Shown piece after piece: positions 1-63,868 of a stretch of DNA of 64,000 bases. The notes below the pieces were generated by a model. The model saw only the letters and a program-made list of their open reading frames with translations. It did not search any database and was not told the origin of the DNA. This DNA comes from Ascidiella aspersa (Eukaryota). Made by a program: the position numbers and the translations under genes. Each line of letters opens with the position of its first letter. Within the stretch, counting starts at the first letter, position 1. The stretch is from contig OZ004607.1 of NCBI GenBank assembly GCA_963924565.1, forward strand, positions 10,912,001-10,976,000, in the 5' to 3' direction.

Positions 1-3000
1 ACTTGGAAACGTTACGGAAGTTTTGCGCGCGCGAGACGAAGCCGACAAATCTCGAACCGACCGAATTGCGCAAGTGTAGAGGCAGCACATTATGAGGAGA
101 CCGAGCCTCTGAGTGGAATAGCAGTAGCGACCAACAACAACACCAACATAGGCCTGATCAACGACAACAGCGACATGCAGCTCGTCCACGAGGCAGAGAG
201 AAATTCAAGGTAAGATTTTGGATATAGATTGCATTTTTGTCAAACGTTTCTTTGCAATGTTCTCAGCAACACTACAATTATACCGCTTGAACGAACATTC
301 GATGCGTATATATTTTAGGTAGCAAAGTTTTTTTTTAAATGTATTAACAACTAATATACTTCCACCTAGCCCATAAATCAATAAACAATTGAGACATTTT
401 CTCGGTAAAACACCTGGATATCTAAATTTGCGTTAGTTCGTTTGAATGTCTAAGCGGAATTTTGACCTGGTCGCATTGGCATAAAAACCCGTATCACGAG
501 TCCTAAACCCTAATTTTAGGAAACGTTACACCTGGGGTTCTTAAAACTTTTTTACCGCGGACCGCTAAAGGCAAGACATTTTTAAAGATAATGTCATAAA
601 TTGACGTCAAAATACAAATAAACTTCAGAAATCTTTTCAAGAAAATCCAAGAAATGTGTATGCGAAATGGAGTCGCAATGCATTTAGTGATGAAAGTTAT
701 TTTTAATTAAACGTTTTTTTTTAAATTGATTTCGTAAATATACACTAACATTAAAATTATGCCTTCATTCACCCCCTAAAACTAGTTCACGAACCCCAAG
801 GGGTCCATCGACCCCAGTTTTAAGAACCCCTGCGCCTAAACCGACATATAGTATCTTAAATGCATTAGCATTCACAAATTTAAGTCTCCTACCATGGCTA
901 CATCTAGATCGAAGTTTGCCACTGCGTCTTTGCCGGCCTTACCATACATCAAACACTAAACAACCTTAACCGAAATCGCAGATCGGATTGCGAGGACGTT
1001 CACGACGGTCTGATGGCCAGCGAAGGTTCGAGTCCGTCCAGCGACGTTCCACGGGAAGATGAGACCCCGATCGCCGTCAAACCGTCGCCCGTTTACGCCA
1101 AGCTGCGTTTGAAGGCGCCTTGCGAGCGTCCGAAGACGCTCAAGTTCTTGGCCGCCTCTGTAGCCTTCCAGGGCTCGACGGTGCCCGCTTTGAAGCGACT
1201 GCCCTACACGCCAGATCCAGGTAAGGCGGGGTTTATTACAGCCTTACTCGTAGAGGCAAGCTTTTCTTTGTCTCAGGATAACATTTTAAAAGTATTGGTC
1301 GTCCTTGGTTTGTAATGAGGTACAAAAATCTGGTTAAAAGTGCATACGAAAAAAGTAAAATTTTAATGCGAAGTAAAGCCGAGGTATGGAGAAAAGTAAT
1401 ACAATTGCGGAACCATCCTTATGAGGTTATCAAAAATTACCGCCTCGTCCAGAAATAACCCCAGGTTTGACCAGCGCCGTGCATCGGCGGCATCACTTCC
1501 CTTGGATGCGCGCTTCGTTCACGAAAAAAGTCAAACGATGCGAAACCGTCGTCTCGCCGGGGTCGAACAAAGGTCACCAAAGATCGCGCAGTTCACCGAA
1601 GTCGAAGGCAAGCCAGTTCTTTGCCCACGTTCGGCATACGACCTGCGCGCGCCCGAAATAAACGTGATGACGCACTTTCGCTTGCGCCACATCCGCCTAC
1701 AGCACCTGCCGCTTGCGGCGCCGCGGAGTGCATTTTTGCGCGTCTCTTCTCTAAACGCTGATGTCCGCCTTTGATAGAGCGACCCTCTAGCCGTCTAGCG
1801 GGTTGTATGATTTGCCTTGTCCGCCAACCGGGCGCTATTGATCGAAGCTGATGCGCAATTGCAAGCACGCAAGGCGACGCCTTTATAAATCGATGCAAGC
1901 CCAAGAATAGACTATATAATGGAAGTAGTAGATTGCCTGCGTAATAGCGCGCCGCAGTGTACCGTACACCTGAGCGGAATTGTTGGTCTCCGCGCATTTG
2001 AACTCTCTAACATCGCGGATGATGATGTAGTGCTTCTGCTGCCGCTGCTATCATTTCATGCACATATTGTGAGCGATGTGCGTGGAAGCTTATCGGCTGG
2101 GTTCTGCACCCGGGAATCGATGTTAATTCAATAATTTTTACTGTGGCAGTAAACGCGCTTTCATTCCTGGCTTAGAAGCTTCTTGAAATCGCCAGCGCGC
2201 CCAATAAATCCCAAGTTTAAGCGGCTACGTAAGGTTTGCATTTTCGCAGCACAGATGCAATAAGAAATACGCAATGAAACAAAGTATAGATACTCAAGAA
2301 ATAGTTTAGCTGTAAGCCCTAATGTTTTCGCTTGTAATTTACTTTACATCAGAATACGCTGCCCCTAAGTATTTTTGAGTGATTTTAGGTTTTGTCCAAG
2401 GTATTGCTTCGAACGGAATGCCATCGGATGAAAAGGTGCGGATTACGTAGGTTGGCGCAATTTATCTCGCCCCCGCGCCCCAACCCACGCAAAATAACTG
2501 GGAACTTTAGGGAGTATAAGTTTCGCGCTGTTGACCCAAGCGATAAAACTTAACTGGACGGAAGGCGGATTAACGTGGTTAAGGAATCAATTTATGACAT
2601 CACTGAGTGGTTCGCAAAAATTTCGTTTTAAAAAAGGAAATCCCTTCGAATAGTAGTATATAAAGATGAATAACTCCTGTTGTGGCCTCGGTTAGTGACT
2701 GTTCACACACTTTCTTTGCGTTATGCGGGCGACTAGGATTTTTTCACCGAAATGAAAAAGGGTAGTTTTATCAAAAATGGTCTTAAGCCAGAAAAGAACG
2801 TCTCTCCCTGGGCAAATTAGGCAACTCGCCTTTAACTGCGAAAGGGCAAGTTAGCTCACCTAGGGTTGAAACGAAACCTTGCAATGAAACGCAAGTTACC
2901 CTAATACGCTTTAAAAGAGCCACGTTGGGTGTTTTTTCATTTGGGTGGGCAAAGGGTGTCCACTAAATTATTTTAAGTCGCCGAGCAACGAAACAAACTA

Positions 3001-6000
3001 CGATCCACATAAGCCAAACCGTTGGCTTCCGGGAAGTCGGGTAATCGAGAGAGGACCGCAATTTAAACCACGCGCATTGTGACGAAATAAAAAGGATGCA
3101 AACAATGGCCGAATTGAGGTCAGGCGGCGACAAAGACGGCGACGGTTAGCGGGTTCTGCTCGTAAAGGATACGCGCCGCACTGCAAAGCCTTTATGAAAC
3201 AAGCCTATTAGTGTTGGACCGGGAATGTTCGGGGTCTTTCCTATGCAGGGCGCAGACGTGTCGGAATCGATTTAACGCCATTGCCCGCCGCAGCGCTTTC
3301 AAAGAAGAACTAATAGTGTTGGGGCGGCGCTGTAAAACAAAAAGCGCTTTTTGTTTGTTCCATGCAATTGGTTCAATTTCCGCGGGCAGGACTCTATTGT
3401 TGTCAGATTCAGTAAGTGTTAGTCAGGGTAGGATGGATCTACGCAAAAAATAGAGTTGTAGACTTTTAGTATGAAATGTCCTGTTTTTAAACGAGCTATG
3501 TCAGCTCCGTTGCTTAAGGTCAGCTCAGGCAAAACTATTTTGGTTGAATTACTGCTTTTAAAACCATGATTTAGTTATAGAAAATAGCAATGACTAAATA
3601 CACTTCTAATGTTGTCAGCAGGCAGTCTGTTGGTACAAGGGTGTATTGGTAGGGTTTACCGAGGTTTCTTGGCAATATATAGGATGTTTGAGGCGTGAAA
3701 GATTATCGGTCAAGCAATCTATCACGGACGTGAGTTCCACAATAAACGAGCTGTTCAGCCAGTTACCGAACTGTGTATACAAGTAGAAAACCTGGTTTTA
3801 GGCCGAAGGCTCTAGTCCAGTGATTCTCAACCTTTTTTAGAGCCAGAGCCGCATTTCAAACCTTAAGTTTGCGAGGAGCCGCATAAAAAACAACAGTAGG
3901 CATGTAATTAAAAAACATTAAGAAAGCAACAAGAAAACAACAAATATACATTACGCTAGCCTAGGCTAACTAATTAGCACTGTTGAAACAGCTATTTCTT
4001 ATTGCCATAGCTTGTCGATCAAGACTAAATATATTATGACGTCACAAACCACAAAATTATTTTAAAGAGCCGGACGGAAGTAGCCCGGGAACATTAGTAC
4101 TTCGTACTTGTGATCCTTGCTGATCAAATTCATTCACTTTTAATTTCTTTTACTTCCTTTGTTGCAATTCTGCTACTACTAACTAATTTTTCACTCCGTT
4201 AGTGAGAGCCGCAAAATGTACAGTTGAGAGCCGCATGCGGCTCTGAGAGCCGCGGTTGAGAATCACTGCTCTAGTCCATTTGGTATTTGTAAGCGAAATG
4301 TAGTTGCGATTCATGTTAACTTTAAACAAGCTATTCACATCAAAAGAACAATGTTAGCCGCTTTGAAGAAGATAAAATAGCAGTTTTCAGAGAGGTTAGG
4401 TTCACCCGGTATCAATGCTGAACTATAATTACGTTTCGTTGGTGGTGTTTTCTTTCTTAATACAACTACTGAGTCTTGGATCGATCAGAAGGTCCAACTG
4501 ACTTGAAATAATTCGGTAGTTGCGTTAGGAGAAGCAGCCTTATCAACAGCAATAGGTCGAGTTTTTGGGTCGATATCGACCAAGCCATGTCACACACACT
4601 TTATATAAATGGAAGCCGCGTTTTTTCACCCACAAAGAGTTCGAAAAGTCACAAATCACTTATAACAACAGACGGTGGTTAGAGCTCTCATTTTGTTCAC
4701 CGAAAACACAGTTTTAAGTCTAACCAGTATAAATTCCCGTGCGGGCGATAAGTTTAAGTTAAAAATTTGCTGTGTTAACTTTGGAGAATTTGCTTTGTTA
4801 ACTTTGGAGAATTTGCTTTGTTAACTTTGGAGAATTTGCTGTGTTAACAAACTTATTTTAACGGCCATTTGCTGTGTCAACTTTTGGCCAGGGTAACGAC
4901 TTTTTCGGTCGCAATCGCACAATTGTTAGGAGGAGAATCGCATAAGCAAATGCGTTGGTAAACCCATAAAAAATGAAAACCAAGTTGCTGGATCAAGATA
5001 AACGGGAAATTTCGAAAATGCTGTTAAATTGAATAAAGCAAATTTCCCCTACGGAATTTCTAAAACTGAAATACGCGTGGTCAGCACTTTGTCTTCTTTG
5101 TGTGTTATTATATGCCAAGTGACGCCTTCGCATTCACAAACAATAGAAAACACTTTTCGACCCATTTGCCCATTGACAACCAATATGTAAAGGGCTGACC
5201 TTAGCCCCTTATTTAAAAGTGTATTGTTGCTTTCCGTGGCCATATTTTCTGACCCTTTTTGTTTTCAGCCCGTTTACTGAGCCAATACTTTGCGAAAAAG
5301 GGGTTTAATAAAGGGGCCATCTGCTTCAAAAGTGGCCGCGCAAGTCGGCTTTCGTGACGTGCAACGCACGAGTATGGCCAAACTGGCCAAGAATGGGACG
5401 AAAATAGAATGAGCTTTTATGACATCATCATCATCGCGGTGTCGGGAACTCAACTTCAGGCGTAGACTTGGGGCTTTTGGCCAACTAGGCGTCCTTAAAA
5501 CGGCCGGTTCCCACTGAACCAAACATCTATGTTTTAATTAAAATGCCGTAACTAAATGAAAGGCTGAACAGGGCCAGACACCCTCGTCCTATCTAGCCAC
5601 GTAAATGTCACACAGGTTTAGAATTGTCGGGGCAAAAACGGGCCAGGCCGCTTTTCGAAACGGACGCTAAAATCTACTGTATTTCCCTTTCATAACTCTC
5701 GGCTCTCGCTAGCTCTGGGGCTTGACTCAGCGGCAGCGCTGGCAACGCAATTACGTCACTTCTTCCTGTATGTGCGGCTGTGTGCTCACAATAGCCGCTC
5801 GCCTCCTGCTCGTCTCTTTGCCTTCTCACTCCCTCTCCCGCCACGGGCGCGTCCCAAATTTCGTCGGATTAAAATTGCGATAATCGTTCGAGGTCCGGTC
5901 ACCCCTCTACCCCCGCTTACTTTCCTTCCATTCGCGAGGGCAATCGGATTACGGCTCTCTTTCCGAGGGCCGAGCGTCCAGTGCTTGACGTTTCGCTGCG

Positions 6001-9000
6001 ACGCGAAGCAAGACGCATGCGACAGCAGCATTAACAGCAGCGGCTGGACGTCGCCAAGCTTACCGGCGACGCGCCGTGAATTATTCAGCAGTGACAGCAG
6101 GTGTTTAGCGCGCATTTCCACCGACCCGCTGATGCACGCCCGCGCTGCCGCGGATAGGAGGTTGGTTAGTTAGTGAGTTGTAGATGGGCCAGCTAGGGTG
6201 GTCGGTTGCAGCAAGCGTCCAGTCGGCCTGTTATCACCCGGGCGTCGTTTTCAATTTCGAGGTTGGTTTTCAGAAGGTTGTTGGTGTGTTTTGAAGCTTT
6301 TGGTGTTGACGGGAAGCAGGCATTGCACAGTGACAGGCCATTATTCATTAAACTATGGATTTTTGGTACATCTAAATGTTTGGTGGGTGTTTAAATGAGT
6401 TTTTAATCTTTTGAAATTAGCATGGGGATGTTGACAAGCTGGTAAGCATTGGAATTAACAAAATTACAATCCGGCATACTACTAAGGTAGCTATTGAGGT
6501 CATAGTCGAAGGCTCTGGTATTGCTTATAGCAGGCATAACAAACCCACCGTAGCGCTGTTAACTCGTTCTTCCCAGTTGTAGTCGAAACGTTTTAGCAAC
6601 TTTACTTGCGTCTGTGTGGGTTCGTTTCCGCATTAAATGATGGGATGTATTAGGCCAGGCGTATCACTGGCAGCATTTGTAGCGCTTGCCGTTGGACAAA
6701 AAACGTATCTGAGGAAAACACTGCGTAGCTAAGAAACAAGAGACGGTCGTACCCCTAAAACTGCAGCGTACGATTGAAATAGAACGTATACGTGCCACCA
6801 GGTTGCACAACAACTACAGTGTGGTGAAATGGACAAGTAGTATTTTGGTGAATAGACAGTTAGTTCAGTGACATAAGCCTATAAGCCAGTCACGATAGCG
6901 GCCAAAAAGCGTGGCAGAGGTGGTTTTGCGATAGTAAAAGCTCGGACGCCAATCATTGAGGATCATTCAGAATGATTGACAGCTCACAATCGACAATAAA
7001 TGTTAGCCTCGAAAGGGCAGCCCAGACTAAACAAACATAAATGGTCATATAGTGATATACGGCAGCGTTGCGCAACGTGGCATGCAGTTTGCAGAACTAT
7101 GTGACAACATTTGGTGCAAGCTGGCCATTGCGTGTATAGCCATGACGTAATTACAAGAATATTTATATATATCTGTATATGTGTGGACAGTGTTTCACTT
7201 TTCCGCGTCGGGTTACGCGTAGCTGTAATTTGAAACGTCAGTTATGAGGTGTCGTCTGACTATACCAGGATTGGCACCGTTTGGCGAGCCAAGCAAGCAT
7301 GCCCTTGCAAGGTTCTAAACTTTGACGCCCAATCTCCCATGCAGAAACTAGCAGCTGATATATTGTTTGAGGCCTTAGTGTCACTTATCAGTGCTCTTTT
7401 GCGGTTTACCTTACACTTTCGATAAGGGTCATTTTTTCGCAAGCTGGTTTAGATCGCGCCGAATATGGCACGCCAACACGACAGTTGCCTGATGAAATGA
7501 AACGCTCTAAAATCGTGCCTTTTGTTCGCAGATTATGACCAGTATAGCACTGTGTGCAACACGGCCGCTGAGGTCGACGACAAAATAGCGCCGCTAGGAA
7601 AAGGCAGAATGAAGCTACGCTCCAAGCCCAGGGGACTGCTGGAAAGGTAAGGTTTTGTCGAAAATCTTGTGTGGTTTAAGCGAACGTCGCTTGCTGTGCT
7701 GGGAATTGGATGAAGTCTAGCCATCGTCACGAACATAGTTTTTGCATGACCCCAAATGTCGCACGTGGGGTAAAAAAGTAGTACAAAAATGGCCGACTTA
7801 AATTAAAACGTGACGTACACTGGCTGTCGCGAAAAGTGTAAATTTTATAATAAAAAAAACATGCACGTCGTTCTCTCGAAGTATTTTGATGTAAAACGTG
7901 CCTTTACGGCCCCAACGTACTACATGTTCTTTACACGAATATTTCAACACGTATAGTGCGTTAGATTGCGCCAGTTTCATTTTTGATGAATAGACGCGCG
8001 TATTTACAAATTCGTCATTTACTCCGCCGCTATTGTTAGCCTTATTTTTAAAAAGTAACACCCTTTTGTTTGTTTGGCGTTGGCCTGACGTAATGCCGTC
8101 TTTGTGGCGACACACAGCCTCATTGTTATATGAAAACGCCCTAAATATATTTAAAAAGCAACAATTCCATCTCTCTATAGATATAATGAACTGCTTCGAA
8201 ATGCGTCTTTTCGAAACAATGGCTTGTGTTTCCGTGACGTAAATAACGCGCGTCAAAGCGCGAGTTCCTCATTCTATTGTGACGTCACCTATTAAGCATT
8301 TGTTCGGCGATTTAATCCAACCTAATTAGTAACTGCCCAGGCCTGAATTCAATGGTGGTCACCATTTGCTGTGCTGTGCTGTGTGCGTATATTTGGAATG
8401 CGAAATTACGACGGAGGCTTTACTTGCAAAACGATTTATGACCATACAATACCCGGTTAATTAACGTTTTTCTTTCAGTTTCTACGCATCCAAAATTAGA
8501 AAGCGCCGACCCTTTCTATTTACTGTTGTTAGACCAGCGGTGTGCAAACTGCGGTTCAACTACATGTTATTTGTCGCCATCCTAACTTAATGGTTCTTGT
8601 AATGTCCACATGCTACTTGTATTAACCCTAATTTTCGCGGCTCATTGTGGTGTGCAGTTTCTTTCAAGGAAACCTTTTATTGAACAAATTGTCCACCCCG
8701 GGTTTCGACTTTCAGCATGATAAAACTGTATTGATATTGGTCGTAACGTATTGCTTTTCAACCGACGAGCATTTTGCTATTTTAGTTTTGGTTTAAAATG
8801 AAATGTTTTGCTCCTCTCGCAGGCGCGGGTCCAACGTGGCTCTCACCATCTCGCTGAAGGCAGGAGAAAAAGCAAACGCGTCCAATCCAGTTGCCTCAAA
8901 ATCACCGTAAGTCGCTTTTGTATGTTTCGACTGTGTCCCTATTACTAGACCACCTATTAGAATGCACAATTCTGCCACTTTGACACGGCCTTTGTAAAAC

Positions 9001-12000
9001 GATCGAATCGTTCGGCCTCGTTTGTATTTTTTAACCCTTTTGAATAGGAGTCGATTTGGGTGGCCAACGAATTTTGATAATTGTTTAGCAGTCTCCCCAA
9101 TACCGACAACCCCCTTTGCATGCGAAAAGAACCTTTCGCGCATTCTCACATTCGGGGCCGGTACCGTATCAAAACTGCTCTCTCTAAATTTATCACCAAC
9201 CGATTTGTGGATTGAGCCAATGTAAGCAGGAGCAGCTATTCCAAAAAAATCGTATAAGGCGTTAAGTCCCCGAAATTGAGCTTGCCGTCGGCCAATCGAC
9301 GTACGATGAATGTGTGCAATACTCGACAACAGCAGGCGACAATTCCCAGGAAATGCGCGCCGGCAATTCGACAATCAGCCAGTAGTCGTCGCGGTTCGCC
9401 TGCCAAGAATGTGTCAAATAATTAGATTACGCCACGCCTCCAGCCTTAAAACGCCGTATTCCCTCAGCATAAAGAAAGCCGCTAAATTTAGAACAAACAA
9501 ACCTGCCTTAAGCACAGTGCTTGGAAAAATTGCGGCATACTTTTTGCTATTGAAGCGTTATAATAACCCTTTCTACGCTGCAAGACCGTATCATTGTGGT
9601 ATTTAATAGATCATGTTTATTTAGGTTTGACATGCTTAAATGCCTGTTTTGTATCCTAAAATAATATTATTTTCCCAAATACAAAAAGTTACGCGGCACA
9701 CTTGAGGAACTTTAAACGCACATTTGTGCGCGCGACACAGTGTTCGAGAAGTATTGTTTTGGCGTACGTCGTGCCAATTCTCTGAATCCTCAAGTGTAAA
9801 TGCTTACGTAAAAAGGCGACTTGAGAAAATGCTGGAAAGGGGTTACGCTCGTTTTTTTTTTTTGACACAATATTTGAGAAAGATTGTTTTGACATACCTC
9901 GCGCCATTTCTCTTAATCCACAAGTGTAAATACTGACGTAAAAATGCAGCTGGCAAAAGTGCGGGAAAGGGGTTTCGCTCGGTTTTTATTATGCGATATT
10001 AATCGGAAGCGTTCGAATGACTCACGAGGCAGCTATTGGGATCCCGAGACCACTCGAGTCGCACACAGGGGAAAAAGAAATGATCGACAATTCGCGCGCA
10101 AATTAAATTGTTGTTGTGTGTCACGTCATGCGCAATATGCTCCAAAACTACGCGAATTGCGACAGAGCCCTAGTTAATGCTTCTCCCGGCGCTCTAGACT
10201 ATCTTTACTGTTAAATTGAATTAAAACATGTCCGTGACGGCCATCATCAGCAACACACATCGTACGGTGTTATTTTCATCCGGACAGTGTCTGGGTCTAT
10301 TTAATTTCAAAACACGGTTGTAAGGTGTTTTACCGCGTATGTTCGTCCATTGAAAAATCAATATGCCGTGTTTATTCCCGCTCACTGATCACGTTGCTAA
10401 CTAAGTTCATTATTTTCATATTATCCATAACTAAGTCGGAGCCGATACCTGATATTGGTATCAAGTTAATAGTGTTCACAACGTCCAATGGTGTGGTGGT
10501 TTCGGCGCCGATCTGATGTGAAGTTAATTAGTGCAATTAATCCTTTGTTTGGGATCCAACGTCGAGTTTTCTGTCTTGGAAGAAAAATATCCCAAAACTA
10601 TTGTTTTTTTTAAATCGTGGCCTATCGCAAAGGCAAATTTCGGCCTTGATAACTTGGTTATCATTACCGTTGCGTTTTTCAATTTGATCAATTTTGCTCA
10701 TTTTTCTATAGTATTTGTGTCATTCGATACCAAGTTCTGAATATCCAACTATTTAAGGAAAACTTGTCTTTTTCTGATGTTTAGTTGGCTGAATTCGGCA
10801 AATTTTATGCAAACTCGAGCAAAAATATAAAAATGTCGCTTTTGTCGGTTATTCAAGTTTTAAGCCAGAACCTTTTAAACAAATCCCCCTAATAACCCAT
10901 ACCCCCTTTTGGCCCCTTTCAGGAAGCCCCTGGCCTACCTGCAGCAGGCCTCGTCTCCCTTGGACCCCGATGAGGTGCACACCAAGGCCTGCGACCCCCT
11001 TCGCCTCCAGCAGGAGTTTTGGGAAATCCCCATGAACCACCCACCGGAGAAGAACTTCAACGTGGCAGGGCACGGCACCAAGAATCGATACCGCTCCATA
11101 CTACCGAGTAGGTGTTTTTGGTCGTTTGACTTCTTTAGCTTTTTGGGAGCGTGGGTTCTTTGTGGTTAAGGCGTTTGGCGTTTTTGAACCCGGTTTTGGA
11201 CAATGGTCGCGTACAAATGCACTTGATGTAGGTGTCATTAAATTTGAAACGTTTAAAATTTCACATGTAGCCCGACGAAGGCGACTTGCATAGGTTTCCG
11301 AAACGTTGATAAAGAATTACAATTACCAGAGGAGCTGTTTTTTTATTTATGTTACTATTTCTGGTAGCAGCAGTTTATATATTGATTTGTTTTTGTGGGA
11401 TTTGTAATCTCTGCAAGATTTTTTGAAAAAAATCTTTAGTTGTTTTATTATAGTTTGATATGGGAAGCAAGTACAACTATCACTTTTAGTAGAGAGCAAT
11501 TTCAAGCACTAACTGCTTTTAATTGAACTATATCTGCATTATTTTATTGTAAATGTTATTTTCAAACACATTTACTGCGCTGGTTTATCCTGCGAAGAAT
11601 AACCCGTTTGAAGCTAAAAACAACAATTTTTATTGAAGACAGTAACTATAGTTTGATACCTGTTCAAAATCCAATCGCAGTCTCAAAAAAATTGTATAAT
11701 ATTTTCGGCGAATTTATTTTGAACGACGAGGTGCATTCTTTAAAATCTCTTCTTCTTCACAGACGAACACAGTCGTGTGACCCTTGACCCCTGCACGGAC
11801 GACGATGCCTTGTCGACTTACATCAACGCCAACTACATCCGGGACTGCGCCAAGCCCGCTCAAGGTCGAACTAAGGTCGAAGACATCAGCTCGCCGGTGA
11901 CGCGGCGTGACGCAGCGTTTATCGCCACTCAGGTGAGAACTCGTTTCGCTTGTTAATTATAATGGGGTTAAAACATTAAAAACATGAAGTTAGATTTGTT

Positions 12001-15000
12001 TTCTTCCGATTTTTAACTTGCAAACCTAAAGTTAACAGTTCAAAAAACAAAATATCTCGATATGTATGAAAAGTTGCCGAGTGGAAATGTTCCAAGTAAA
12101 TTGAGCCAGGAGAAAAAGGGGGAACAAAACAGGTTTGATGAAGGATATGCTGTTTTATTAAAGAGCCAACCTAAATTAACTTACGGATGGAAAAACTCGG
12201 CAAACAAGATTTCAAACGCCAGCATTAATTGATCAAGAGCTTTAAATTACTTTAAATCAAAAGCCAAGCGACAAAACGTAAACCGGTCCGGGTGTGGAAA
12301 GGGAAACGGCTCGTTTTGAAGTTTTCCTTTCTCTTGGTAAATGCCCTTTTAACATGTGCCCTTTAGCCTCGCTTTAAAGTTTCGGCGGAACATAACAACA
12401 CAAACCCCGAAACCTCGGAGCCCAAATTGCCGCGGCGTAATTGCGACCAGGTGCGCAGCGTCGAACGCGAGAGCGCAGTTTGTGTAACGGACCAGATTAA
12501 AGCGGCACCGGGTCGAGTAATTGCTGGCCTCAGCGCGACAATAACCGTGGGATAAAATAATTGACGCCGCGCTCCGGGACTTGTTTACTTCCGCTACTAC
12601 GGCTAAAAGCCGCGCCCGGTCGGCCTGCCTGTCAATCAAATCGCGCCCCGGCAATTTCTGAACGGATAAATATTGACCTTGACGCTAATTGAAATTAAAA
12701 TATACTCGGGTGTATTTGTAGCTTGGATCAGCCAAGTACTGAGGCAACACGTTTTTAAAAAAACATTGTTTTAAAGTTTTTTTGGGTGTTAGCCCAATAA
12801 GCAACTTTATTCTGGCTAGGACGATTTATAAATATTGTAAACGCATTTTCAACGCATGGATTAGAAAAGAAGCTTTTACACTGGAGTAAATATTCGATAA
12901 GGTGCTGTATATTCATATCATAGTGTGCAACAAGTCGGCATCTTGTTTCCTACACACCATTTATTCTATACTGTTATATGAACCAGCCTCGGCAGGACAT
13001 CCACAGTTATAACCAACGTCCAAATACCTTTCAGGGCCCGATGGCAAACACGATCGGCGACTTCTGGCGTATGACGTGGCAGGAAAACGTCAGATGCATC
13101 GTCATGATCACCAAGCTTAAGGAAAGAAAGGAGGTAGGTGCTCAAAGTAGCTGAAATAATTGAAATAGAAACAAGTGGATTTGGTGGACGAAAAACAGTA
13201 GCATGGATATCCGAGCCATGTGAATAGGAAAACCACAGAAAACAATAAAGTTCAACGACAAATCATTTCTAAAAAACAATTTAAAATATGCCTTGTATTT
13301 CGCCATTAGTACAGTGATTGAGTTTGGCGTCGTATGTACACTTGCGATCTTTCGGAAGTGCAAATTATATATTTTCTTTGCTTTACGCAGAAATGCAGCC
13401 CCTATCTGCCCATGAACCTGGACGAAAGCGCGACATACGATGACGTCACCGTTTCGGTGGATTCCCTTCGCCAGTTCGAGCACTTCACCTTGCGGACGGT
13501 AAGTCGAATATGAAACTTCTCCCGTCATAACGTTTTGCACTGCCGTGTCGTAAAATCCCTCCTACTACACTACTAGAGTACATTTTTTGTGTTTGATTTT
13601 CAAAGGTGGAATGGGTATTTATTTCACAAGTATTTGTTTCAAGCTGGGTATAAATAGAACTTTCTGCACAGTTTTACATACAAACCATCAAATATTTGCC
13701 TGCAGTTGGTTTTAACATATATGACCAACGAATTTGATATTCCTTTCACAAGTATTTGCTTCATGCTAAGCTATAAAAAAAAACTTGCACACCAGCCACT
13801 AAACATTTACAACATACATAGAACATGGTTTTGCATACCAGCCAACACATTTTTGCTTTCAGTGGATTTTAACACACGACCTTCAAATTTACGAATTTAG
13901 CTCAGTTTAACAAACAATCCTGTAATTTTGTTGCTTTAAGCACGCTTTAACAAAATCCCTTTTTTAACAAATTTTAACAAACGAACTTTTGCGGTTTCCG
14001 CTCACTTGCGCAAACTCACTCGACTTTTCTCCCTTCAGCTATCTCTGCGGCATTCGAACGGCGAGAGACGCGCGGTCCAGCATTACTGGTACACAACCTG
14101 GATGGATCACGAGACGCCAGAGAAGACGCGCGGCCTTTTGGAACTCGTGCAGGAGGTTACGCGCTGGAACAGCGAGCAACATGGGCCCACTGTCGTCCAT
14201 TGCAGGTTGGTTCTTCAACATGATTTTACTGTCTTTGTCTAACGCATTTACCCGGCTAACCAAGTAATTTAAATGGATTATGGGATAAATCATGGAAATA
14301 GTTCAAAACGTGGCAAGTTAAGGTTAATATTCCCTGACACCACCTGAACCCAAACCCTAAATCCAACCCTATCTTTAAAACTAAACAATTGAAGAGGAAT
14401 TTATTAATTCCACCGGCATTTAATTGATATCAGTATTTTATCCTAAACTTTCATATTAATTGTGCTTACCGCTTTTATGAACCCAAATTACACTCGCCAG
14501 CGCACAAGTGCAGCCAGGGTTGCCCAACGACTGGTCACGACATGACTTTTTTGTTGAAAAAAAGCGCAACATGGCCTAAACTTTTCGCCGCTATAAATAA
14601 AAGTATAATTTTAAGCATAAAGGATTACTAACGAGAATTGAAAATAGTAGACGCAGTGGGTTAAAATAACTTTGGGTCAATTCAGTTTGCGAGAGTGTTA
14701 TTTGGATACACTACAATGAAAGCCATTGCATACGTAAGCCGTAATTGTTGGTCAAAAAGCAGCTTTAGAAGGGCTAGATCGCAGTTTTTAACATACATTC
14801 AGATGTGTTTGCATGTGTTCATTAAATATATTACCTCTGAATTAAGCTTCTTTTTTAATCGAATACTTTGCGCTTTTTTGCTCACTTACGGTACTTTTGC
14901 AAAACAATGCAAAAAACATGTTATGTTGCGTTTTTTAGTTGTATTCCTCACAAACAACAGCTGCAATCTTTAACTAAGTTGATGTTTTATGAAAGCCTAA

Positions 15001-20194: not shown

Positions 20195-20737
20195 ACCTCC
20201 AATTAGTGAATTCTATTCTGTTTCTTATGTCATGTATGCCTTTGTATGGCATCATTGGCTTCTGTATTACTCTTGTTGTTGGACATATTGTCTCGTTTTT
20301 AACGGGTAATTATTTGTTATTACAATTATACATTCTCCGCAAAACTCTCAATTTTTCTGAAATGATTGACATTGTTAGATTCATGTTTATCATCTTGGTG
20401 TATAGTTTGCATGTTTAATCCTAAATTCAATCGCTTTAGAGTTCATTCTACTTGATATTTATAACTCTCTAACAATAAACGTTTTTTTTGCCTTCACAAT
20501 ATTTTTTACTATTATTTCACGACAGGTTTCCAGCACCCCAGCAAACTTCCACGTGGTGTCACCATTCCCTTCTTCGACCATGTGATTTTCAAATGGATTC
20601 CCGCCAAAACCCGGCGCTTTCTTTGGTGCGAAGTTCCGTACGACAAATAAGAGAGCGAGCCCCAATTTGCAGATGAAGAAAAGAAGGGTGAGATTGACAT
20701 AGGAAAGTCCCCCAAGATTGAAAACAACTTGGCGTAA
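20195..20737 (+). pseudogene. SLC5A8/SLC5A12/SLC5A6-like sodium:solute symporter, last two exons, disrupted
   Basis: Exon 20195-20305 reads PPISEFYSVSY, then shifts frame to LYGIIGFCITLVVGHIVSFLTG (last TM helix of SMCT-type SLC5). Exon 20526-20737 reads FQHPSKLPRGVTIPFFDHVIFKWIPAKTRRFLWCEVPYDK*ESEP...NLA*. No intact upstream exons were recognised. Confidence 0.72.
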
Positions 20738-23581: not shown

Positions 23582-23628
23582 CAAAATGAAAAATAAAACG
23601 AAAAAAGTTAGTTTGCGCAGGATTGAAT

Positions 23629-54283: not shown

Positions 54284-54415
54284 TATATAGCCGACCCCGG
54301 ACACGGAGTTAAGTCAAACGAACACGAAAGCGCACGGAAAACAACGCTCGTCACAACGGAAGCATTCGCGTCTTAAGAAATTCGAAGTTATCTCTCTACT
54401 CCGAAACAAACCAAG
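54284..54415 (+). promoter_or_regulatory. TATA box and non-coding first exon of the PTH-like gene
   Basis: TATATAG at 54284-54290 follows a GC-rich stretch. An ATG-free, A-rich leader ends in a consensus donor AAG|gtaag at 54415/54416; the next acceptor is tttcttttcag at 54678. Confidence 0.7.
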
Positions 54416-54690
54416 GTAAGATTGCGTTTGAATGAATTTGATGTATGGCCTACGCTGGTAAAATAGCCAAGCTGGTTTATGTTATGTTGGCAGAAAAAAT
54501 GTTTTTGTCATCCTGTTATTCTTTTAGTTCTCTCCGCATGCTTTAAACAAATTCATTCTTGATAATTTTAAACCGCTATATAATGCCCCAAAAAATTATA
54601 TGATGACAGAAAAAAAAGAAAGCTTCTTTCCATATTTCATAAAATACTTTTTACATATTCTTCGTTTTTTCTTTTCAGTTAGTCGAAAAC

Positions 54691-57600
54691 ATGAATCAGA
54701 CATTACCTGTCGCCTTAGTGGTCGTCCTATTCGCGATCCAAGTCTCCCAAGCATACACGTTAAGCAGGTTAGTGAAGTAAATTGTGTGTTTTTATATCTG
54801 CCAATTATATATTTGTTTTTTGCTTAAAATCGGACATATATAGAATTTTAGGAACTTTAGGGTAAATATCTTATTAAGTGTCAATACACGTAGTCATCAT
54901 CTAAGCAGGATAAAAACGTATCCCAATAAACTTAAGACTGATTAGTATATGCAACAAATCGTGCAAAGGTCCACGTCAGTGTCGTTTATTTGTAAGTAAA
55001 GCATTATTTATTTAATTTTTTCTTACAACTTCTAGGCGAATCGCATCTAAAAAATTTTCAAGTTGGAAGTAAAAAGTTGCTATATTGACAGCACTTCTTT
55101 CGAGTGAGTTGCAACGAAAGCGTTAATAATCTAATTTTAAACACCTGATCCACTGACATTATAGAGCAGCCTATACAAAAAAATGTTGCCGCATTTTTTC
55201 TTACAACTTGTATAGGCGAAATCGCACTTAACATTTTGTTAAGTGAAATATGAAGGGTTGCAAATTTGACAGCCTTTTTTAGAGTAAGTTAAAACGCTTG
55301 CGTTAATAATCTAATTAAAAAAAACGATCCACGGACATTGGAGTACGAAAGGGGATTGATCGGATACTAAAGATCCGTCCGACGGTTTTCGCGCGGAGTC
55401 GGCCGTTCGCCGCGCAAACCGCTTCTCGGCCCTTAATTCTGCGACTTAACGCGTGTCGGCTTGTGAGCAGGCAGCGACGCTCCAGCATCAACGCCGACAT
55501 CTCGCTGCACGAAAAGAACGCCAAGAAGGTGCAGAGCCTTTACCGCCAGTACTACCTGCGCAAGATCCTCGACGACTTTAACAAGCGCGACGGTTCGAGC
55601 GCTCCAGCAAATCCCGTGGGACCGGCACAGGAAGACGACGCCGACAACGGTACGTGCTCGTGTTGTTGGTTGATCTGTGGTTGCTTTGTCGGGTTCTCTA
55701 TATAAAGAGGCCATTTTCTTTACCCGTCGGGTCGCCTGGGAATCCGCGGTGGCAATTTTCGGCTTGTGGCTGCTGTTTCGTTGTACCCAAGCGAATGCGA
55801 TTGAACGGAAATCTGTATTATAGAATTGCGTTATTTTTTCCTTTCGTATTTGTTGCTTAAATTTTTGCCAATTTTTTTTTTCCGACTTCGCGTTAATTCT
55901 AATCGTCGCTAAAGCGTATGTCGGCTTTATTTGATAACCCCATCTTTGTGCTAACTTTGATAAATTGCAGTTAAAATTAAGTTTTTCAAAAACAAAGGCG
56001 CTGAAACGCTACAGCACAAAAGCGGGCGGATAAATTTGTATGGCTATGACAGTTTAATAACTTTATTAGATCCTTTTTGTAAGTTTGATTAGGAACGGGT
56101 CTAACACATTTCCATAGTCTCACGTTTTATTTTCAAATCTTGATAAGCTTTCGCGTTCGTATCAGTTGTAAATTAAGATAAAAGCAACGTAATATAATCG
56201 GACGGGCACATAGTTAATTTAAGTGAGAAGTAAGTTAGAAAAGGTTAGTTCTACCAATTAAAGTGTCTAATTGCATGAGCGTCCTTAAAAAGAACGGTTG
56301 TGCGTACGCTTGTAGATTTAAAATTCAGCATTACCTGTTTGCATTAGTGCCACGTCAGCAGAAACTCAATTCGGAGTGCTCCTGTGTGCTTAATTAAACA
56401 GGTTAAAAATACTTTTGGCACGTTTTAATTAAGTTTCTTTGCGAAAGGCCGCAACGGGTGTTACCACAAAGCTTTAAATATTTAACATTGGGTTTTGGGG
56501 GGAAAGCCACGGAGAAACGACACGTTAAGGGAATAACATCACCTGTGGGAATTAGCCGGCGTTTGAACGCGAATTTGTAAGATTATTTTAAATCGCAGGA
56601 ACATCTATTCACTTAAATATAGCAGCTTCACATGGCGCAATTAAAACAGTTCGTTATATTAGCAGGAAGGCCACGTTTTAAGCATCTCTGGGCTTACCAT
56701 TTACTTCTTCCTGAAAGAAATGAAAGAAACTTTGTGACAAACACAGAGCCTTTCAAAGATCAGTACGCTGAACTGTACGCCCGTAATAGCTTGTCACCGA
56801 GGTTACGTTTGGTTTTGTGATCAGGCTTATACTGAAAAAGAAAAATTTAACAATAGCGACTTTTGCGAAATAAACGAAACCGCTTTGACTTCAGTAATAG
56901 CTTTTCCCACAAAGTGTGCTCTTCGGGTTAAAATCAGGTCACGTCAATTTGCTAAAAGCTCGTTTACGACCCCCAAGTGAAACGATCGGTAATGACATGC
57001 TTCAGGTTAACACCATTTTTTCGGTAAAATATTCGTAACGGTGTTGGCGCAAGGTGACAGCGTATAGCACCAACTTGATTAAAAGCGACTGTTGTTTACT
57101 GACAAGGCTGCCCCTATAATGCATCAAACCACTTCAAAGGCCTTATTAATACCGAGGAATATTTTCCTGCGCAGATTCTTCAAACGAAGACCACGATTAT
57201 TATCTGATCGATGAGAAAAGGGACCTCGTGTCACGAGTGCACGGTTAGTGCTTAAACAAATCAACGTATAATTTCGCTCTAATTCTATCGAATATAAAAC
57301 AAAGGCAAAAACACGACGGCTATTTTCCCAGCTCTTTGTGGTTTAAGCATGATTTATTTTTGATAAAGGAATTATAGGACTGCGCTTTGTTTCCCCTTTG
57401 TAGAATAAAAACAGCAAAGAAAATAGAATTGGGTGTAGCATTATAACAAAAATGTTGCACGCTAAAGTTTTCGTTTGGTATTTGATTTAAAGGACATTTA
57501 CCCAGAGCGCCGTTACGAGATTTAAGTTCACTATAGGCCAATATAATTTTGTGGTCTTAGGCTACAAACACCATGGAACGTCGGAAAGTTTGTAACGTAA

Positions 57601-59167
57601 AATTTATAGTTTATTTTCGCGAGACGTCCGACATTGGAAAACGGCACAGATTTACTCTTAGCCAGCATTAAGTTAACCAGTCTTAGTAAACTAAACGCCT
57701 GCAGCCTGCAGAGTGTAAACATGTCATTCTGAAAACACTTAAGTTCCATTCAAGTCATTTGTAAAATACATTAGGTCAAATCAAGTCATTTTACACTAAA
57801 GACTAAAGTCAAGATAAGTGATTTAAAAACAGGGCTTGTTGTAGAAACGACAAGAAACAAAGCGAAACGCAATTTTGTTTTTAAAAATCTTTTCTAGACT
57901 TTGGCTTTGTTTGAAAGCAATTTACGAATGTCTACATATAGTGCAGGAGTCGGCAACCTTTTGTATTTGCAGTGTGCCAGTTTATAAATAATTTCAAAAT
58001 ATCAACAACTATAGCGTGCCAAAGAAAAACTTCTATATTTGGTTTTGCACTGGCAACCAGGGCTGCGGAGTCGGTTAAAAACAACCCGAATCCAACTTCG
58101 GCTAAATGTGCAATTTCATCGAGTCCCGAGTCCAGCTCAGACAACCTGTATTTTAATGACTTTCGTAACTAAAATAAGATGGATATTCAGCAATCCAATC
58201 ATATGGGTCATGAAAAATGTGCCACCATATGCTATTCCACCTATCAATTAGCAGTTCGCTGCCTTATCAGTTTGGAAATCTGGTACTGATTATGCGCACA
58301 CGTCGAACTCGGGTAGTTCTACCTAGTCTTACTCGAGTCCCGAGTCCGACTCCGCACTGCCGTGATCTGACATTCCAATTACGAATAATCTGTGTTTTTT
58401 TTTCTAATTTACGTATCATGGGATACGCAAATAAACCTAATTTCATAAGTTAAATTCTGTTAAGTTACCTTAAAATTTAAATCTGTTAGAAAAAAAAACG
58501 AACTGTCCCGAACACAATACTGTGCCCGCTAGTTTGGAACATACTTTGACGCTTTTCAGCCGAAACTTAAAAGTGTTAATAATATTAGTTTGGGTTTTAG
58601 CTTGGCTTCTCAGTCGACCAAAAAAACACGCATACTTCAAATGTAGAATGCCCGCTTCGGCGGCCTTAACGCAGTAAACATCAAGCCAAGTTAGGTAATA
58701 GTGACGTAATACGAACGGTTAGTCGTAAACAACAAGTTTAACTCCCACCAAAAATAGTGTTATATACAACAGTTAAGACACTAGTTTGTGACACGAACTG
58801 GAAATGTGTACAACCGTTTAGTTAGCGATAGTGTTAGTGTAGTAATAATATAATGTTAATGATGTAATGGTTGCACTTTCTTTAGTGATACAATATGGGC
58901 GTTAAATCATTTGGCGTGCCAGCCAAAATCATCTCGCGTGCCAAAAGTGGCCACCAGTTTATGAACTTGGTCTAATTCTACTCGCTATTTACAGGATTAA
59001 GAAGTGCGCTTTCCTATTGGTTACGTCGCCAAGTGAAACCAGCTGTTATCAGGGAACTGCGCAAAAACCTGCCGCTGGGAGCGGGAGAGAGCGACGAAAA
59101 GGCTGAAAGTTATTTGAACTCGATCGTCGAGTACTACCCTTTGGAAAAGTACAAAATGGATTCCTAG
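54691..59167 (+). CDS. Parathyroid-hormone-family (PTH/PTHrP/TIP39-like) prepropeptide, 142 aa, 3 coding exons
   Basis: Exons 54691-54767 (MNQTLPVALVVVLFAIQVSQAYTLS, signal peptide), 55471-55649 (RQRR|SSINADISLHEKNAKKVQSLYRQYYLRKILDDFN|KR DGSSAP...) and 58995-59167 (GLRSALSYWLRR...KYKMDS*). Phases 2/1 are consistent; AATAAA at 59324. Confidence 0.82.
55015..55340. repeat. Diverged ~180-bp tandem duplication in the PTH-like intron
   Basis: ttcttacaactt...taggcgaa...gcgttaataatctaatt...gatccac.gacatt occurs twice in tandem. Confidence 0.8.
58058..58360. mobile_element. MITE-like element with GAGTC repeats in the last PTH-like intron
   Basis: cagggctgcggagtcgg ... ccgactccgcactg inverted ends with internal gagtcccgagtcc repeats. 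Confidence 0.65.
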
Positions 59168-60074: not shown

Positions 60075-62950
60075 TCAGACGTGTGACGTCACGTCGGGCA
60101 GGGTAAGGTGCAAGAAGTCGGCCGAGGAGGAGGACATGTTCTCGGAGGAGGAGCGGAAGTCATAGCAGGCGTCGCCCGGAAGACTTTCGGCTGTGCGGTG
60201 AACTTGAATAGAAGGCTTTCGTGACGTCATAGTTGCAGGAGGGGTCAGTTGGTTGGGTTCGAGTCGCAGCTCCTGCGCGAACGAACAGATCGGGTTTACT
60301 TAAGGTAAAAGTGTTTTCTTCGAGCGTAGCGTAGGGTTACGAGACTTTTCAAATCAATCTCTATAAAAGCCTAGCATGACATTTTCTACCTCAATTTAAC
60401 CTATTAATATATTTTTAGTTTTTGCAAATTAAAAAACATTGACAGTTAGCGACCTCTAGCGCCTCTTCAAGTTGGTATCGTTCGGCCGCTAGGCGCGTTA
60501 GCAAGCTCTGTTGGTCTGAACGGAGCGGCGAGTCGGTCAGTTTAGGAGATGGTTGGTCGTCGACACCGTTCAGCTTGCGTTCGAAGCTGGAAAGCCTGGA
60601 AAAAAAAAAAACAGAAGCTGGTTAAAAAAGCGTTGGCGGCAATATATGTGGGACTATTTGTTGCATAAATAGGAGAAAATTTTATTAATTTAACCGTTTT
60701 ATTGATATAGAGTTAGCTCCACCCGGCAACATAGCAATAGATAAAAATTTCCTTTCTGATGAAAAAAGTATAAACCAACGTTTCGGCAGCAGATTAATAA
60801 TTTAAACAAGAATGCATTAGCAAGTTTATATAATCAAAAAATAAAAAGACATTAGATAAAAATAAATCGTCATTTTCATTTTATTTATAGTTCACTATAA
60901 TAGTGGTATTACGCTGATACATGCTCGAAAATTAAATGTAAAAAATTAAATAACGCAATAACGCCCCTTTAAAAATGTAATCAACCAAATTAATCGTATT
61001 TTCAGCCACAGCCTCGTCCCCCCAAAAGGGAGATTTTGGGGGATTTGTATTTTCTTGAATTCGTTTTTAGTTTCACAGACCCCCGTTGCCCTCCTAGAAT
61101 TAAACTCACATCCGTAAGAGGTTCCTTTCGCGCTCCGCTTTGTTGCAGAGGCTCTCCTGGAACTGGATCGACTCGAGCCTCTCGTAGATCTTGTCCATCT
61201 TGAGGAGGTGGATCATCCTGGCCTCCCGCTGCTGGGCGCGAAGAGCAAGAGCCTCCTCCACGTCGTTACGGGCCTAAGGCGGAACAAAGGGAGTAATGAC
61301 GACCGTTGCTGCGGATATTTAACATTGAAATACACTTGCTGAGGTTTTTAATAGCCGAAAAATGGCGTGGTTGTAGTAGTGGCTGCTTTTGTTAAACACC
61401 TTGAAACTATAACGTTAACTTACTCTTCCATAAAGGTCGGGTAGCCGGTCAAAAATCAGTCGGTGCAAGCAGGATTTTCTTGCAAGCATTTCGATACAAG
61501 CTTGTATCGCTCGTATCGAAACGTCTTAATGAAGATGATGTCGATCTACTCGACCTTTTTGGCCTTGCAAGCAACATTACAAATCCGTGCATGGTGTACC
61601 CAACTTACTCTTTGCTATATAAATACGGCTTTATAAGTGACATATGTGGTAGTAAAGGGGATAAGGGGGGAATAAACCCACAAATAAGCTTGGATTTCGT
61701 TACAGCTACCTAAGCAACATTGAAGTAGACCCATTGAATCTAATTGATAGTGTCTAATGCTGTTTTAATAATTTATCTACGAGGCGCTGCCAACGAGATT
61801 ACGCTCTAACGAATCATTAAAAACTTATTTGAACGCGCTCTTACCTTCTTAGCTTCCTGCAGCCTCTCGAAGGTCTCCAGGACTTCCCTCTTCTTCCGGA
61901 AGACCTCGCGTTCGCTCTCACGCCGCTGAAACCGCTCCAGGCGCCGCTCCGAGATCTCGCTGGTCTTTGCTGACATTCCTGTAATAAATGGGCGGTATAA
62001 TGGCCATGAAATACACATAATGCCTCCAGGAAAGGCTTACCAACATCAGTCGATCTAAGCAGGATTTTTGTGCAAGCAAAGCATGCATGTAAAACAACTA
62101 TCCCGTGGTGAGGTGCGAACTCAGGACCTCCGGCCAAACCGGGACCGTCGCTCTACAGACTGAGCTACGCAGGCTCAGTGGGGACTGGCCGAGAAATGTA
62201 GCAGGGTTGCACGCTGCATTCTGATCACAGATTTATATACAATGTGTAGATGAATGTTTCAATGATTATTATGATTGGCGAGGCTTTGTGTAAAATTGAG
62301 AATCATAGGTCACAAATAGTCCCAAAACAGGGTAATGTTTTTTGTTTTTAAATCGAGTTTTGTTCTTTTAGGTATTTTGTAAACAATGGTTCTAAAAGTC
62401 GTCAGCCGTTAATAGAGAAAGAGTTAATTACTTGCAGCTTTGTAATTACTGGAGCAGCAATTTGTGTCGGTAGAAAGGGGGAACAATGAGCCAACAAAAT
62501 AATTATATGCTCGTAAAAGGTACCACAAAACTTTACGTACCCGGTTAGACATATTTAGAGGAGTATACTCTTATGATTTTATAATAGGGAAACAAAAGGT
62601 GTTAGTATATACGTTTCGGGCCTTGCTAAGGCTTTTGAAAAAAAAACACTTTTTTTTTGGAAAAAAACAACACTAATTTTGCTAACAAACATTTAAGGTA
62701 ATATACGATCACTGAGGTACAGCTCATTTTTTAAAGCCGCCCAACAAGACAAAACAATATAGGTAAACCGATTAGAAACACGCGGCTCACCTGTTTCGGT
62801 GACCTTGATCGCGACATTGACGAGCGTGAGCCAGGACAAGGACGACTTCTGATTTGTGGAGGCGAACTCCCGCTCTGAGGTTATGCTGTAGTCACCCTCT
62901 TTCTCCACCACGCGGAATCTGTGCTTGAGCGAGTTGGTGCCGGGGAGAGC
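60075..62950 (-). CDS. SWAP70: SWAP70/DEF6-like PH + coiled-coil protein, 3' part (5 exons in window)
   Basis: Phase-consistent exons ~62950-62791, 61978-61845, 61273-61110, 60595-60454 (weak donor gtcgct) and 60272-60075. They give ALPGTNSLKHRFRV...EFASTNQKSSLSWLTLVNVAIKVTETG (end of a PH domain) followed by a coiled coil LQEAKKARNDVEEALALR...MDKIYERLE. This aligns by eye with the DEF6/SWAP70 PH-end and coil as recalled. The protein ends ...DVTSHV*. Confidence 0.72.
62035..62174 (-). mobile_element. tRNA-derived SINE (degenerate tRNA head plus body)
   Basis: The minus strand reads gcctgcgtagctcagtctgtagagcg...ggaggtcctgagttcgcacctcaccacggga (A and B boxes, mismatched acceptor stem). The body cagtcg...aagcaggattt.t.tgcaagca is repeated at ~61457-61490. 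Confidence 0.65.

Positions 62951-63832: not shown

Positions 63833-63836
<4 letters not shown>

Positions 63837-63866: not shown

Positions 63867-63868
<2 letters not shown>

What the first reader, a model, noticed from the sequence alone, without database searches (positions are those of the whole stretch)
1..62950. Neighbourhood maps to the human 11p13-15 paralogon, giving synteny support for PTH orthology
Seen: PTPRR/PTPN5-like, SLC5A8/12-like, IMMP1L, the PTH-like gene and SWAP70-like all lie within 63 kb, with the PTH-like and SWAP70-like genes tail-to-tail. Established: human PTH, SWAP70 and PTPN5 are on 11p15, SLC5A12 on 11p14 and IMMP1L on 11p13; paralogues PTHLH, PTPRR and SLC5A8 are on chromosome 12. 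Inference: these genes derive from one ancestral chordate linkage group, which is homology-independent evidence for the peptide's identity. Unkempt (human UNK 17q, UNKL 16p) is the exception.
Basis: partly seen in the sequence, partly recalled or inferred. Interest (0 to 1): 0.7.

Follow-up and report, generated by a model that had tools for sequence, protein, structure and literature searches.

The report
Sea-squirt parathyroid-like gene, partial synteny support
A sea squirt has a gene predicted to release a short hormone that likely belongs to the parathyroid hormone family, and three of its seven nearest mappable neighbours come from the same ancestral chromosome as the human hormone, which is modest support for its identity, not proof.

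Summary
The genes are there, but the synteny is weaker than claimed. The window is ascidian. It holds a KIM-type phosphatase, IMMP1L, unkempt, a single-copy secreted-peptide gene and a SWAP70-like gene tail-to-tail with it. The 'SLC5A8/12' is a recent, broken 1.7-kb copy of a gene on chromosome C8 and must be dropped. Just past the window edge lie CCDC28, USP48 and UNC119, which map elsewhere. The count becomes 3 of 7 neighbours within 40 kb, against 1 of 23 genes sampled along C1 (Fisher p 0.03; 0.06-0.12 with wider flanks or a looser baseline). Paralogon markers concentrate on C8 (5 of 15) rather than C1 (4 of 15, not significant); TEAD, TUB, BTBD10 and FAR are on other chromosomes. The peptide still looks PTH-like: 34 residues between dibasic sites, 4 of 6 published family residues, an intron just before the cleavage site, and a PTH-receptor-like gene in the genome. 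Pfam, PDB and two large searches do not recognise it. Tunicate PTH-like peptides are already in print. My look-ups of earlier scan notes showed nothing on this gene.

The parts
1..16407 (+). KIM-type protein tyrosine phosphatase (co-orthologue of PTPN5/PTPRR/PTPN7), 3' 11 exons; 5' end lies upstream of the window
   Evidence: 775 aa stop-free model with GT/AG introns and KIM motif; Pfam Y_phosphatase; PDB hits PTPN5 3.8e-11, PTPRR, PTPN7 (82); family in paralogon 6
19382..21092 (+). Broken DNA-level copy of the 3' end of an SLC5A5/8/12-type transporter gene from C8; not an ancestral neighbour
   Evidence: 86-90% identity with introns to C8:23.85 Mb, 4-bp deletion, 10-bp insertion, stops; no SSF-domain match in the window among 73 genome matches
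24832..34363 (-). IMMP1L-type inner membrane peptidase (exons 34363-34164, 30115-29999, 25036-24871; 3' end not fixed)
   Evidence: in-frame model; Pfam Peptidase_S26; paralogue on C5; IMP1 versus IMP2 call rests on recalled motifs
37817..38902 (-).
   Evidence: Pfam Copine 2.4e-47 (56)
42052..47127 (+). Unkempt (UNK/UNKL co-orthologue), 3 exons; non-paralogon neighbour 7 kb from the peptide gene
54284..54415 (+). TATA-like box (54284-54289) and predicted non-coding first exon ending at a GT donor
   Evidence: sequence; not confirmed by RNA
54691..54767 (+). PTH-like coding exon 1: predicted signal peptide and short propeptide; phase-2 intron follows
   Evidence: hydropathy peak 3.5 (116)
55471..55649 (+). 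PTH-like coding exon 2: RQRR site, 34-residue predicted mature peptide (55481-55582), KR site, acidic spacer
   Evidence: single copy in genome; pattern of published family residues found once in 2.39 million translated residues and in 6 of 200,000 shuffles
58995..59167 (+). Predicted PTH-like coding exon 3: 56-residue C-terminal extension; polyA signals at 59324-59455
   Evidence: no Pfam match; splice not confirmed by RNA
60075..64000 (-). SWAP70/DEF6-like gene, 3' half; continues 6.7 kb beyond the window (to 70699 in window numbering); tail-to-tail with the peptide gene
   Evidence: Pfam PH; weak PDB hit to KIAA0640 PH, E 0.021 (83); low minus-strand RNA coverage at 59619-60821 (92)

Best explanation
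The window holds a single-copy ascidian gene predicted to make a secreted prohormone that is likely the co-orthologue of the vertebrate PTH family, and it sits among three genes (SWAP70-like, IMMP1L, a KIM phosphatase) that are likely leftovers of the same ancestral chromosome, mixed with at least four genes from other ancestral chromosomes and a recent broken SLC5 copy. Shown: gene models, single copy, neighbour order, origin of the SLC5 relic, marker positions, a PTH-receptor-like gene on C2. Inferred: the signal peptide is removed, a convertase cuts after RQRR and at KR, and the 34-residue peptide binds the C2 receptor as class B1 ligands do (C-terminal helix on the ectodomain, N-terminus in the membrane pocket), signalling as a paracrine or neuroendocrine factor. 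Inferred for the synteny: paralogon 6 was split in this lineage, mostly to C8 and partly to C1, and mixing on C1 is incomplete. The neighbourhood therefore raises the odds that the peptide gene is a paralogon-6 gene by very roughly 4-10-fold, but does not name it.
For: Precursor layout and phase-2 intron just before the dibasic site, matching the PTH layout in PMC4354418 (non-coding exon, prepro exon, first intron before the KR site). With one gap the peptide has H9, R20, L24, L28 of the six residues listed as conserved in PMC3009671, Ile for V2, and L-H-E against L-H-D; that pattern occurs once in 2.39 million translated residues, at this peptide. PTH-receptor-like gene at C2:34.67-34.71 Mb. 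Neighbours within 40 kb: 3 of 7 paralogon-6, against 1 of 23 along C1. SBF2 (C1:12.1) and AMPD (C1:13.1) lie 1.2 and 2.1 Mb away.
Against: No sequence tool recognises the peptide as PTH: Pfam none at E<=0.05, PF01279 none in the genome, uninformative because its control rang nowhere, PDB none at E<=10, 5.8-billion search none, 1.84-billion search 3 hits, 2 IQ-repeat proteins and 1 repeat protein, ESM Atlas IQ clusters at 0.89 and nothing useful without them. Q6 is not conserved. The motif test was built after seeing the peptide. Only 1 of the 4 nearest informative genes is paralogon-6. C1 is not significantly enriched for markers (4 of 15, p 0.13) while C8 is (5 of 15, p 0.007). TEAD, TUB, BTBD10, FAR and COPB1 are off C1. 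Baseline names and human positions are partly recalled; its 95% interval is 0.1-22%.
Confidence: 0.6

Rival explanations
1. The peptide is a PTH-family member, but the neighbourhood is a chance draw from a scrambled chromosome and carries no extra information.
For: p only 0.03-0.12 and 0.10 after dropping one gene; non-matching genes are interleaved and come from several other regions; tunicate genomes show fissions, fusion with mixing and order scrambling (PMC12448946); no paralogon-6 gene among the 13 genes named in 27 stretches sampled from 8.5 to 12.9 Mb; the pattern was noticed after the fact among many windows.
Against: SWAP70-like is the immediate neighbour; 3 of 7 exceeds an expected share of 4-14%; SBF2 and AMPD lie within 2.2 Mb.
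Confidence: 0.25
2. The gene encodes a tunicate-specific secreted helical peptide, or an IQ-like peptide, that resembles PTH by convergence.
For: All database hits were IQ-motif or repeat proteins; no PTH hit anywhere; Ciona has many non-homologous neuropeptides (PMC8936170, search listing only).
Against: The IQ glycine is missing and the loose IQ pattern is common (256 matches in the same scan); a signal peptide argues against calmodulin binding; length, cleavage sites, intron position and residue pattern fit PTH together.
Confidence: 0.12
3. One reading: the whole window is a retained block of the 11p13-15 linkage group that on its own establishes PTH orthology.
For: Inside the window alone the count is 3 of 4 informative genes (Fisher p 0.005).
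Against: SLC5 is a recent transposed relic; three non-matching genes sit just outside the edge; the human counterparts span about 22 Mb with no adjacency (PTPN5, others recalled); other peptide genes share the paralogon.
Confidence: 0.03

Closest known systems
Vertebrate PTH family (PTH1, PTH2/TIP39, PTH3/PTHLH, PTH4/PTH-L)
   Same: Prepro layout with the intron just before the dibasic site; about 34-residue active region; L-H-x motif, R20, L24, L28; a C-terminal extension on a further exon as in PTHrP (PMC4354418, PMC3009671).
   Different: One extra N-terminal residue and one internal insertion; Q6 absent; below detection by Pfam PF01279 and PDB search; the vertebrate flanking genes BTBD10, TEAD and FAR are on other chromosomes here.
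Tunicate and amphioxus PTH-like peptides (Mirabeau and Joly 2013, as cited in PMC4354418 and PMC5640766; named Pth1/2/3/4)
   Same: A PTH-like precursor in an ascidian whose genome also has a PTH-receptor-like gene; Ciona receptors are described in PMC3483286.
   Different: I could not see the published sequences (paper not held), so identity with them is untested; the six searches listed in the report found no neighbourhood analysis for a tunicate PTH ligand.
Paralogon 6 of Lamb 2021 (human 11p/11q13, 12, 1q32/6p21, 19q13)
   Same: PTPRR/PTPN7/PTPN5, TEAD, CPT1, TCP11, TNNT, TNNI and SLC5A8/12 belong to it; PTH4 maps to chicken 26 / human 6 (PMC3009671, PMC5640766).
   Different: In this ascidian its markers are spread over C8 (5), C1 (4), C3 (2), C6 (2), C2 and C7 (1 each); PTH, SWAP70 and IMMP1L were not found in the held part of the table, so their membership is recalled from human position.

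Membership tests
PTH peptide family | Signal peptide, short propeptide, dibasic site before the mature peptide | tested here: met
   Model; hydropathy; no signal-peptide predictor was run
PTH peptide family | Prepro and mature regions on separate exons, intron just before the cleavage site | tested here: met
   Phase-2 intron 10 bases before the mature peptide; layout from PMC4354418; splicing predicted, not seen in RNA
PTH peptide family | Conserved 1-34 residues V2, Q6, H9, R20, L24, L28 and an M/L-H-N/D motif | tested here: inconclusive
   4 of 6 identical with one gap, V2 conservative, Q6 absent, L-H-E motif; pattern chosen after seeing the peptide
PTH peptide family | Match to the family profile or to solved PTH peptides | tested here: not met
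   Pfam, PDB; short diverged peptides often fail such searches
PTH peptide family | Cognate PTH-type class B1 receptor in the genome | tested here: met
   C2:34.67-34.71 Mb; best PDB hits PTH1R; 90-92% identical over one exon to tunicate PTH2R-like proteins
PTH peptide family | Binds and activates the PTH receptor | not testable with these tools
   Needs an assay
Paralogon 6 / 11p13-15 linkage | Neighbours enriched over the chromosome's own composition | tested here: inconclusive
   3 of 7 against 1 of 23, p 0.03; range 0.03-0.18 over the variants tried
Paralogon 6 / 11p13-15 linkage | Gene lies on the chromosome that carries the linkage group | tested here: not met
   C8 is the enriched chromosome (5 of 15, p 0.007); C1 has 4 of 15, p 0.13 (102)
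Paralogon 6 / 11p13-15 linkage | Adjacency kept in other tunicates or amphioxus | not testable with these tools
   No other animal genome was searchable
SLC5A8/12 orthologue in place | Intact gene with SSF domain at an ancestral position | tested here: not met
IQ-motif proteins | [IVLF]QxxxRGxxxR core in a cytosolic protein | tested here: not met
   Glycine absent, no Pfam IQ match, signal peptide present

The most novel reading that the evidence does not exclude
The PTH-like/SWAP70-like/IMMP1L/KIM-phosphatase cluster is a surviving piece of pre-duplication chordate gene order. It would place the tunicate peptide on the PTH ancestral chromosome by position, and give a 34-residue candidate ligand for the still unpaired ascidian PTH receptor, so that PTH signalling could be tested in an animal without bone.
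Probability: 0.3. Interest if true: 0.55.

Novelty: new member of a known kind. Interest (0 to 1): 0.32.

Why it matters
Short hormones lose detectable similarity over 500 million years, so position is one of the few independent checks on tunicate 'PTH-like' peptides. Here that check gives real but modest support. It also shows two traps: a recently moved pseudogene and a window edge turned 3 of 7 into an apparent 4 of 5. The practical gain is a defined peptide and receptor pair in an ascidian that can be assayed.

Tried and rejected
SPT2 marker: no match, left out of the tally. PF01279 genome search: uninformative. C8 sampling, 20 stretches of 10 kb: too few nameable genes to use. The three hits of the 1.84-billion search were rejected as IQ or simple-repeat matches. 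USP47 (11p15) was considered for the downstream USP because it is the second PDB family hit; rejected on the C-terminal DUSP domain and N-terminal sequence, which I recall as USP48; if wrong the count is 4 of 7, p 0.006. Tight vertebrate adjacency of PTH4 with DEF6 or PTPN7 was considered and not supported: on chromosome 26, PTPN7 is 0.17 Mb from BRPF3 in chicken but 4.1 Mb in zebra finch, and PPARD shows the reverse (column order inferred). No gene trees were built: vertebrate paralogues of the neighbours were not fetched. Linkage-group tables naming SWAP70, IMMP1L or PTH were not found in three papers' supplements. Earlier scan notes: nothing relevant.
Full report
Setting. The window is G000:C1:10,912,001-10,976,000 of a 308.6-Mb genome with nine chromosome-scale contigs of 26.6-41.0 Mb, C1 being 13.3%. 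Its proteins are closest to the ascidians Phallusia and Ciona.

What is in the window. Exon models with GT/AG introns and no internal stops were built for a KIM-type tyrosine phosphatase (775 aa from base 1), unkempt, an intronless copine-domain ORF and a 142-residue secreted precursor, and for three exons of an IMMP1L-type peptidase. One phosphatase exon matched 15 PDB sequences, all PTPN5, PTPRR or PTPN7; these three form one ohnologue family in paralogon 6 of Lamb 2021. The SWAP70-like gene is 80% and 60% identical over the queried exon to Phallusia and Ciona proteins of that name (3 hits of 61 candidates) and spans 60,075-70,699. Its stop codon is about 0.9 kb from that of the peptide gene on the opposite strand, so tail-to-tail is correct. 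The IMMP1L versus IMMP2L call uses recalled motifs; the genome's other S26 match is on C5 and has the alternative motif.

The SLC5 gene is not a neighbour in any ancestral sense. The stretch 19,382-21,092 is a copy of the last three exons and their introns of an intact gene at C8:23.85 Mb (86% and 90% identity), with a 4-bp deletion, a 10-bp insertion and stop codons. The SSF family gives 73 exon-level matches, more than 30 loci by my count, on six chromosomes, none in the window. The parent exon matches NIS/SLC5A5 slightly better than SLC5A8.

The window edge hid contrary evidence. I read 100 kb on each side, picked coding segments with a self-trained model and scanned 47 ORFs against Pfam. 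By distance from the peptide gene the informative neighbours are SWAP70-like 0.6 kb, unkempt 7.2, CCDC28 13.2, USP48 14.5, IMMP1L 19.9, UNC119 23.6, KIM-PTP 37.9, CHMP2-like 89 and KIAA0930-like 126. Human positions of CCDC28, USP48, UNC119, CHMP2B and unkempt are recalled and lie outside paralogon 6; KIAA0930 (22q13, recalled) is ambiguous. Dropped as lineage-expanded or unassignable: the SLC5 relic, copine-like, glycosyltransferase, Usp, a possible tetraspanin, trypsin, a rhodopsin GPCR, fibrinogen-C, sulfotransferase, carboxylesterase, sushi-repeat, one coiled-coil gene and a parvovirus-like stretch.

Baseline along C1. Sixty 10-kb stretches were sampled, denser near the locus (segments in 58, 68). 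Of 58 ORFs sent to Pfam, 29 matched. I could name 23 genes with a human position: 16 with Pfam support at domain level and 7 from recalled sequence alone; all human positions are recalled. One (CTR9, C1:26.0 Mb) is an 11p gene and one (LRGUK, 7q33) is ambiguous. Against 1 of 23, the local counts give one-sided Fisher p 0.005 for the window alone (3 of 4), 0.031 for 40 kb (3 of 7) and 0.057 for all nine; against 2 of 23, 0.013, 0.068 and 0.121; dropping one matching gene gives 0.10-0.18. The excess is probably real but small, rests on three genes, and was spotted after the fact.

Chromosome-scale test. Fifteen Pfam families were searched as paralogon markers; 14 matched, and troponin was counted as two, giving 15 votes. 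C8: TEAD, TUB, COPB1, catalase, CPT1. C1: ELP4 30.4 Mb, SBF 12.1, AMPD 13.1 and 30.9, a weak troponin match 27.1 that I read as troponin T without checking. C3: troponin I-like, BTBD10-like. C6: TCP11, RPS13. C2: TSG101. C7: FAR (81). C8 is enriched (5 of 15, p 0.007), C1 is not (4 of 15, p 0.13; 3 of 14, p 0.28 without the weak hit). TEAD, CPT1, TCP11 and the troponins are paralogon-6 families in Lamb's table; BTBD10 is a conserved PTH neighbour in PMC3009671; the rest are 11p genes from memory. So the linkage group is split here, the peptide gene is on the minor part, and none of the close vertebrate neighbours tested is near it. This fits the fissions, fusions with mixing and loss of order reported for tunicates (PMC12448946).

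The peptide. The predicted gene has a TATA-like box, a non-coding exon, an exon for signal peptide and propeptide ending in a phase-2 intron just before RQRR, an exon with a 34-residue peptide ended by KR, and a last exon for a 56-residue tail. It is single copy. PMC4354418 describes the same layout for PTH and extra downstream exons for PTHrP. PMC3009671 lists V2, Q6, H9, R20, L24, L28 and an M-H-N or L-H-D motif; with one gap the peptide has H9, R20, L24, L28, Ile for V2 and L-H-E, and lacks Q6. A pattern of these residues matched once in 2,389,766 translated residues, at this peptide, and in 6 of 200,000 shuffles, but it was written after seeing the peptide. Against this, no database recognises it, and what they return is IQ-motif or repeat protein. 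The genome has a PTH-receptor-like gene on C2 (best PDB hits PTH1R; top database hits tunicate PTH2R-like; 15 aligned segments) and a separate exon with weak GLP1R/GIPR hits on C8. I put PTH-family membership at about 0.8 and a retained-linkage origin of the cluster at about 0.6-0.7.

How far synteny can go. Even if real, it marks the gene as probably paralogon-6. KISS, GAL and SPX progenitors share one ancestral chromosome (PMC5207463) that I recall as this paralogon, together with CALCA and ADM. The choice of PTH among these comes from sequence, so the evidence is not fully homology-independent, and any orthology is to PTH1/2/3/4 together (PMC5640766).

What is known. [quoted passage not shown] Six library searches found no neighbourhood analysis of a tunicate PTH ligand. 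Mirabeau and Joly 2013, On et al. 2015 (Mol Biol Evol), Suarez-Bregua 2017 (FASEB J) and Bhattacharya 2011 were not held; I saw nothing of them, and they or their supplements may hold the tunicate sequences or such an analysis. Seen: PMC4354418 parts 1-2 of 5 and passages; PMC3009671 passages and section 5; PMC8040251 passages, section 6, part 23 of 127 of a supplement that was cut when stored, and three supplement searches; PMC3483286, PMC5640766, PMC7251081, PMC8557429, PMC11521371, PMC7224569, PMC12448946 and PMC5207463 passages; PMC13689697 abstract, outline and one empty search; PMC12954441 and PMC8809688 supplement searches only; PMC8936170 search listing only.

Verdict. A likely ascidian PTH-family gene with modest positional support: 3 of 7 near neighbours rather than the 4 of 5 the window suggested. 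New member of a known kind; interest 0.32.

Noticed in passing
G000:C7:2.0-7.7 Mb: 43 matches to the fatty acyl-CoA reductase C-terminal domain (PF03015), about 40 tandem copies spaced some 50-100 kb apart: a very large expansion for a chordate.
   Followed up: no
L018:1708-4463 (about 62-65 kb past the window end): Two long minus-strand ORFs, one with a parvovirus-type phospholipase A2 domain (PF08398); probably an endogenous parvovirus-like element. Observed only.
   Followed up: no
window 37817-38902: Intronless copine-domain ORF with an N-terminal hydrophobic segment and no C2-domain match; AT-rich compared with neighbouring genes.
   Followed up: partly
window 58995-59167: The precursor's last exon encodes 56 residues with basic clusters and a Trp-Leu-Arg-Arg stretch, possibly a second helical peptide; no Pfam match.
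   Followed up: partly
window 27450-28384: 27-bp unit repeated 34.6 times (higher-order 162 bp) inside an IMMP1L intron, giving stop-free 320-330 codon frames.
   Followed up: no
window 25800-25913: An AG/GT-bounded 38-codon open stretch on the plus strand inside an IMMP1L intron; no Pfam match.
   Followed up: partly
G000:C2:22.64 Mb, C6:8.72 Mb, L013:2-2941: TSG101, TCP11 and USP48 matches each lie in one long open frame (415, 515, 980 aa), suggesting intron loss or retroposition, which would help explain markers found off the main chromosome.
   Followed up: no
L088 (G000:C8:20.50 Mb): Class B1 receptor ectodomain exon with weak best hits to GLP1R and GIPR; its ligand was not sought.
   Followed up: no
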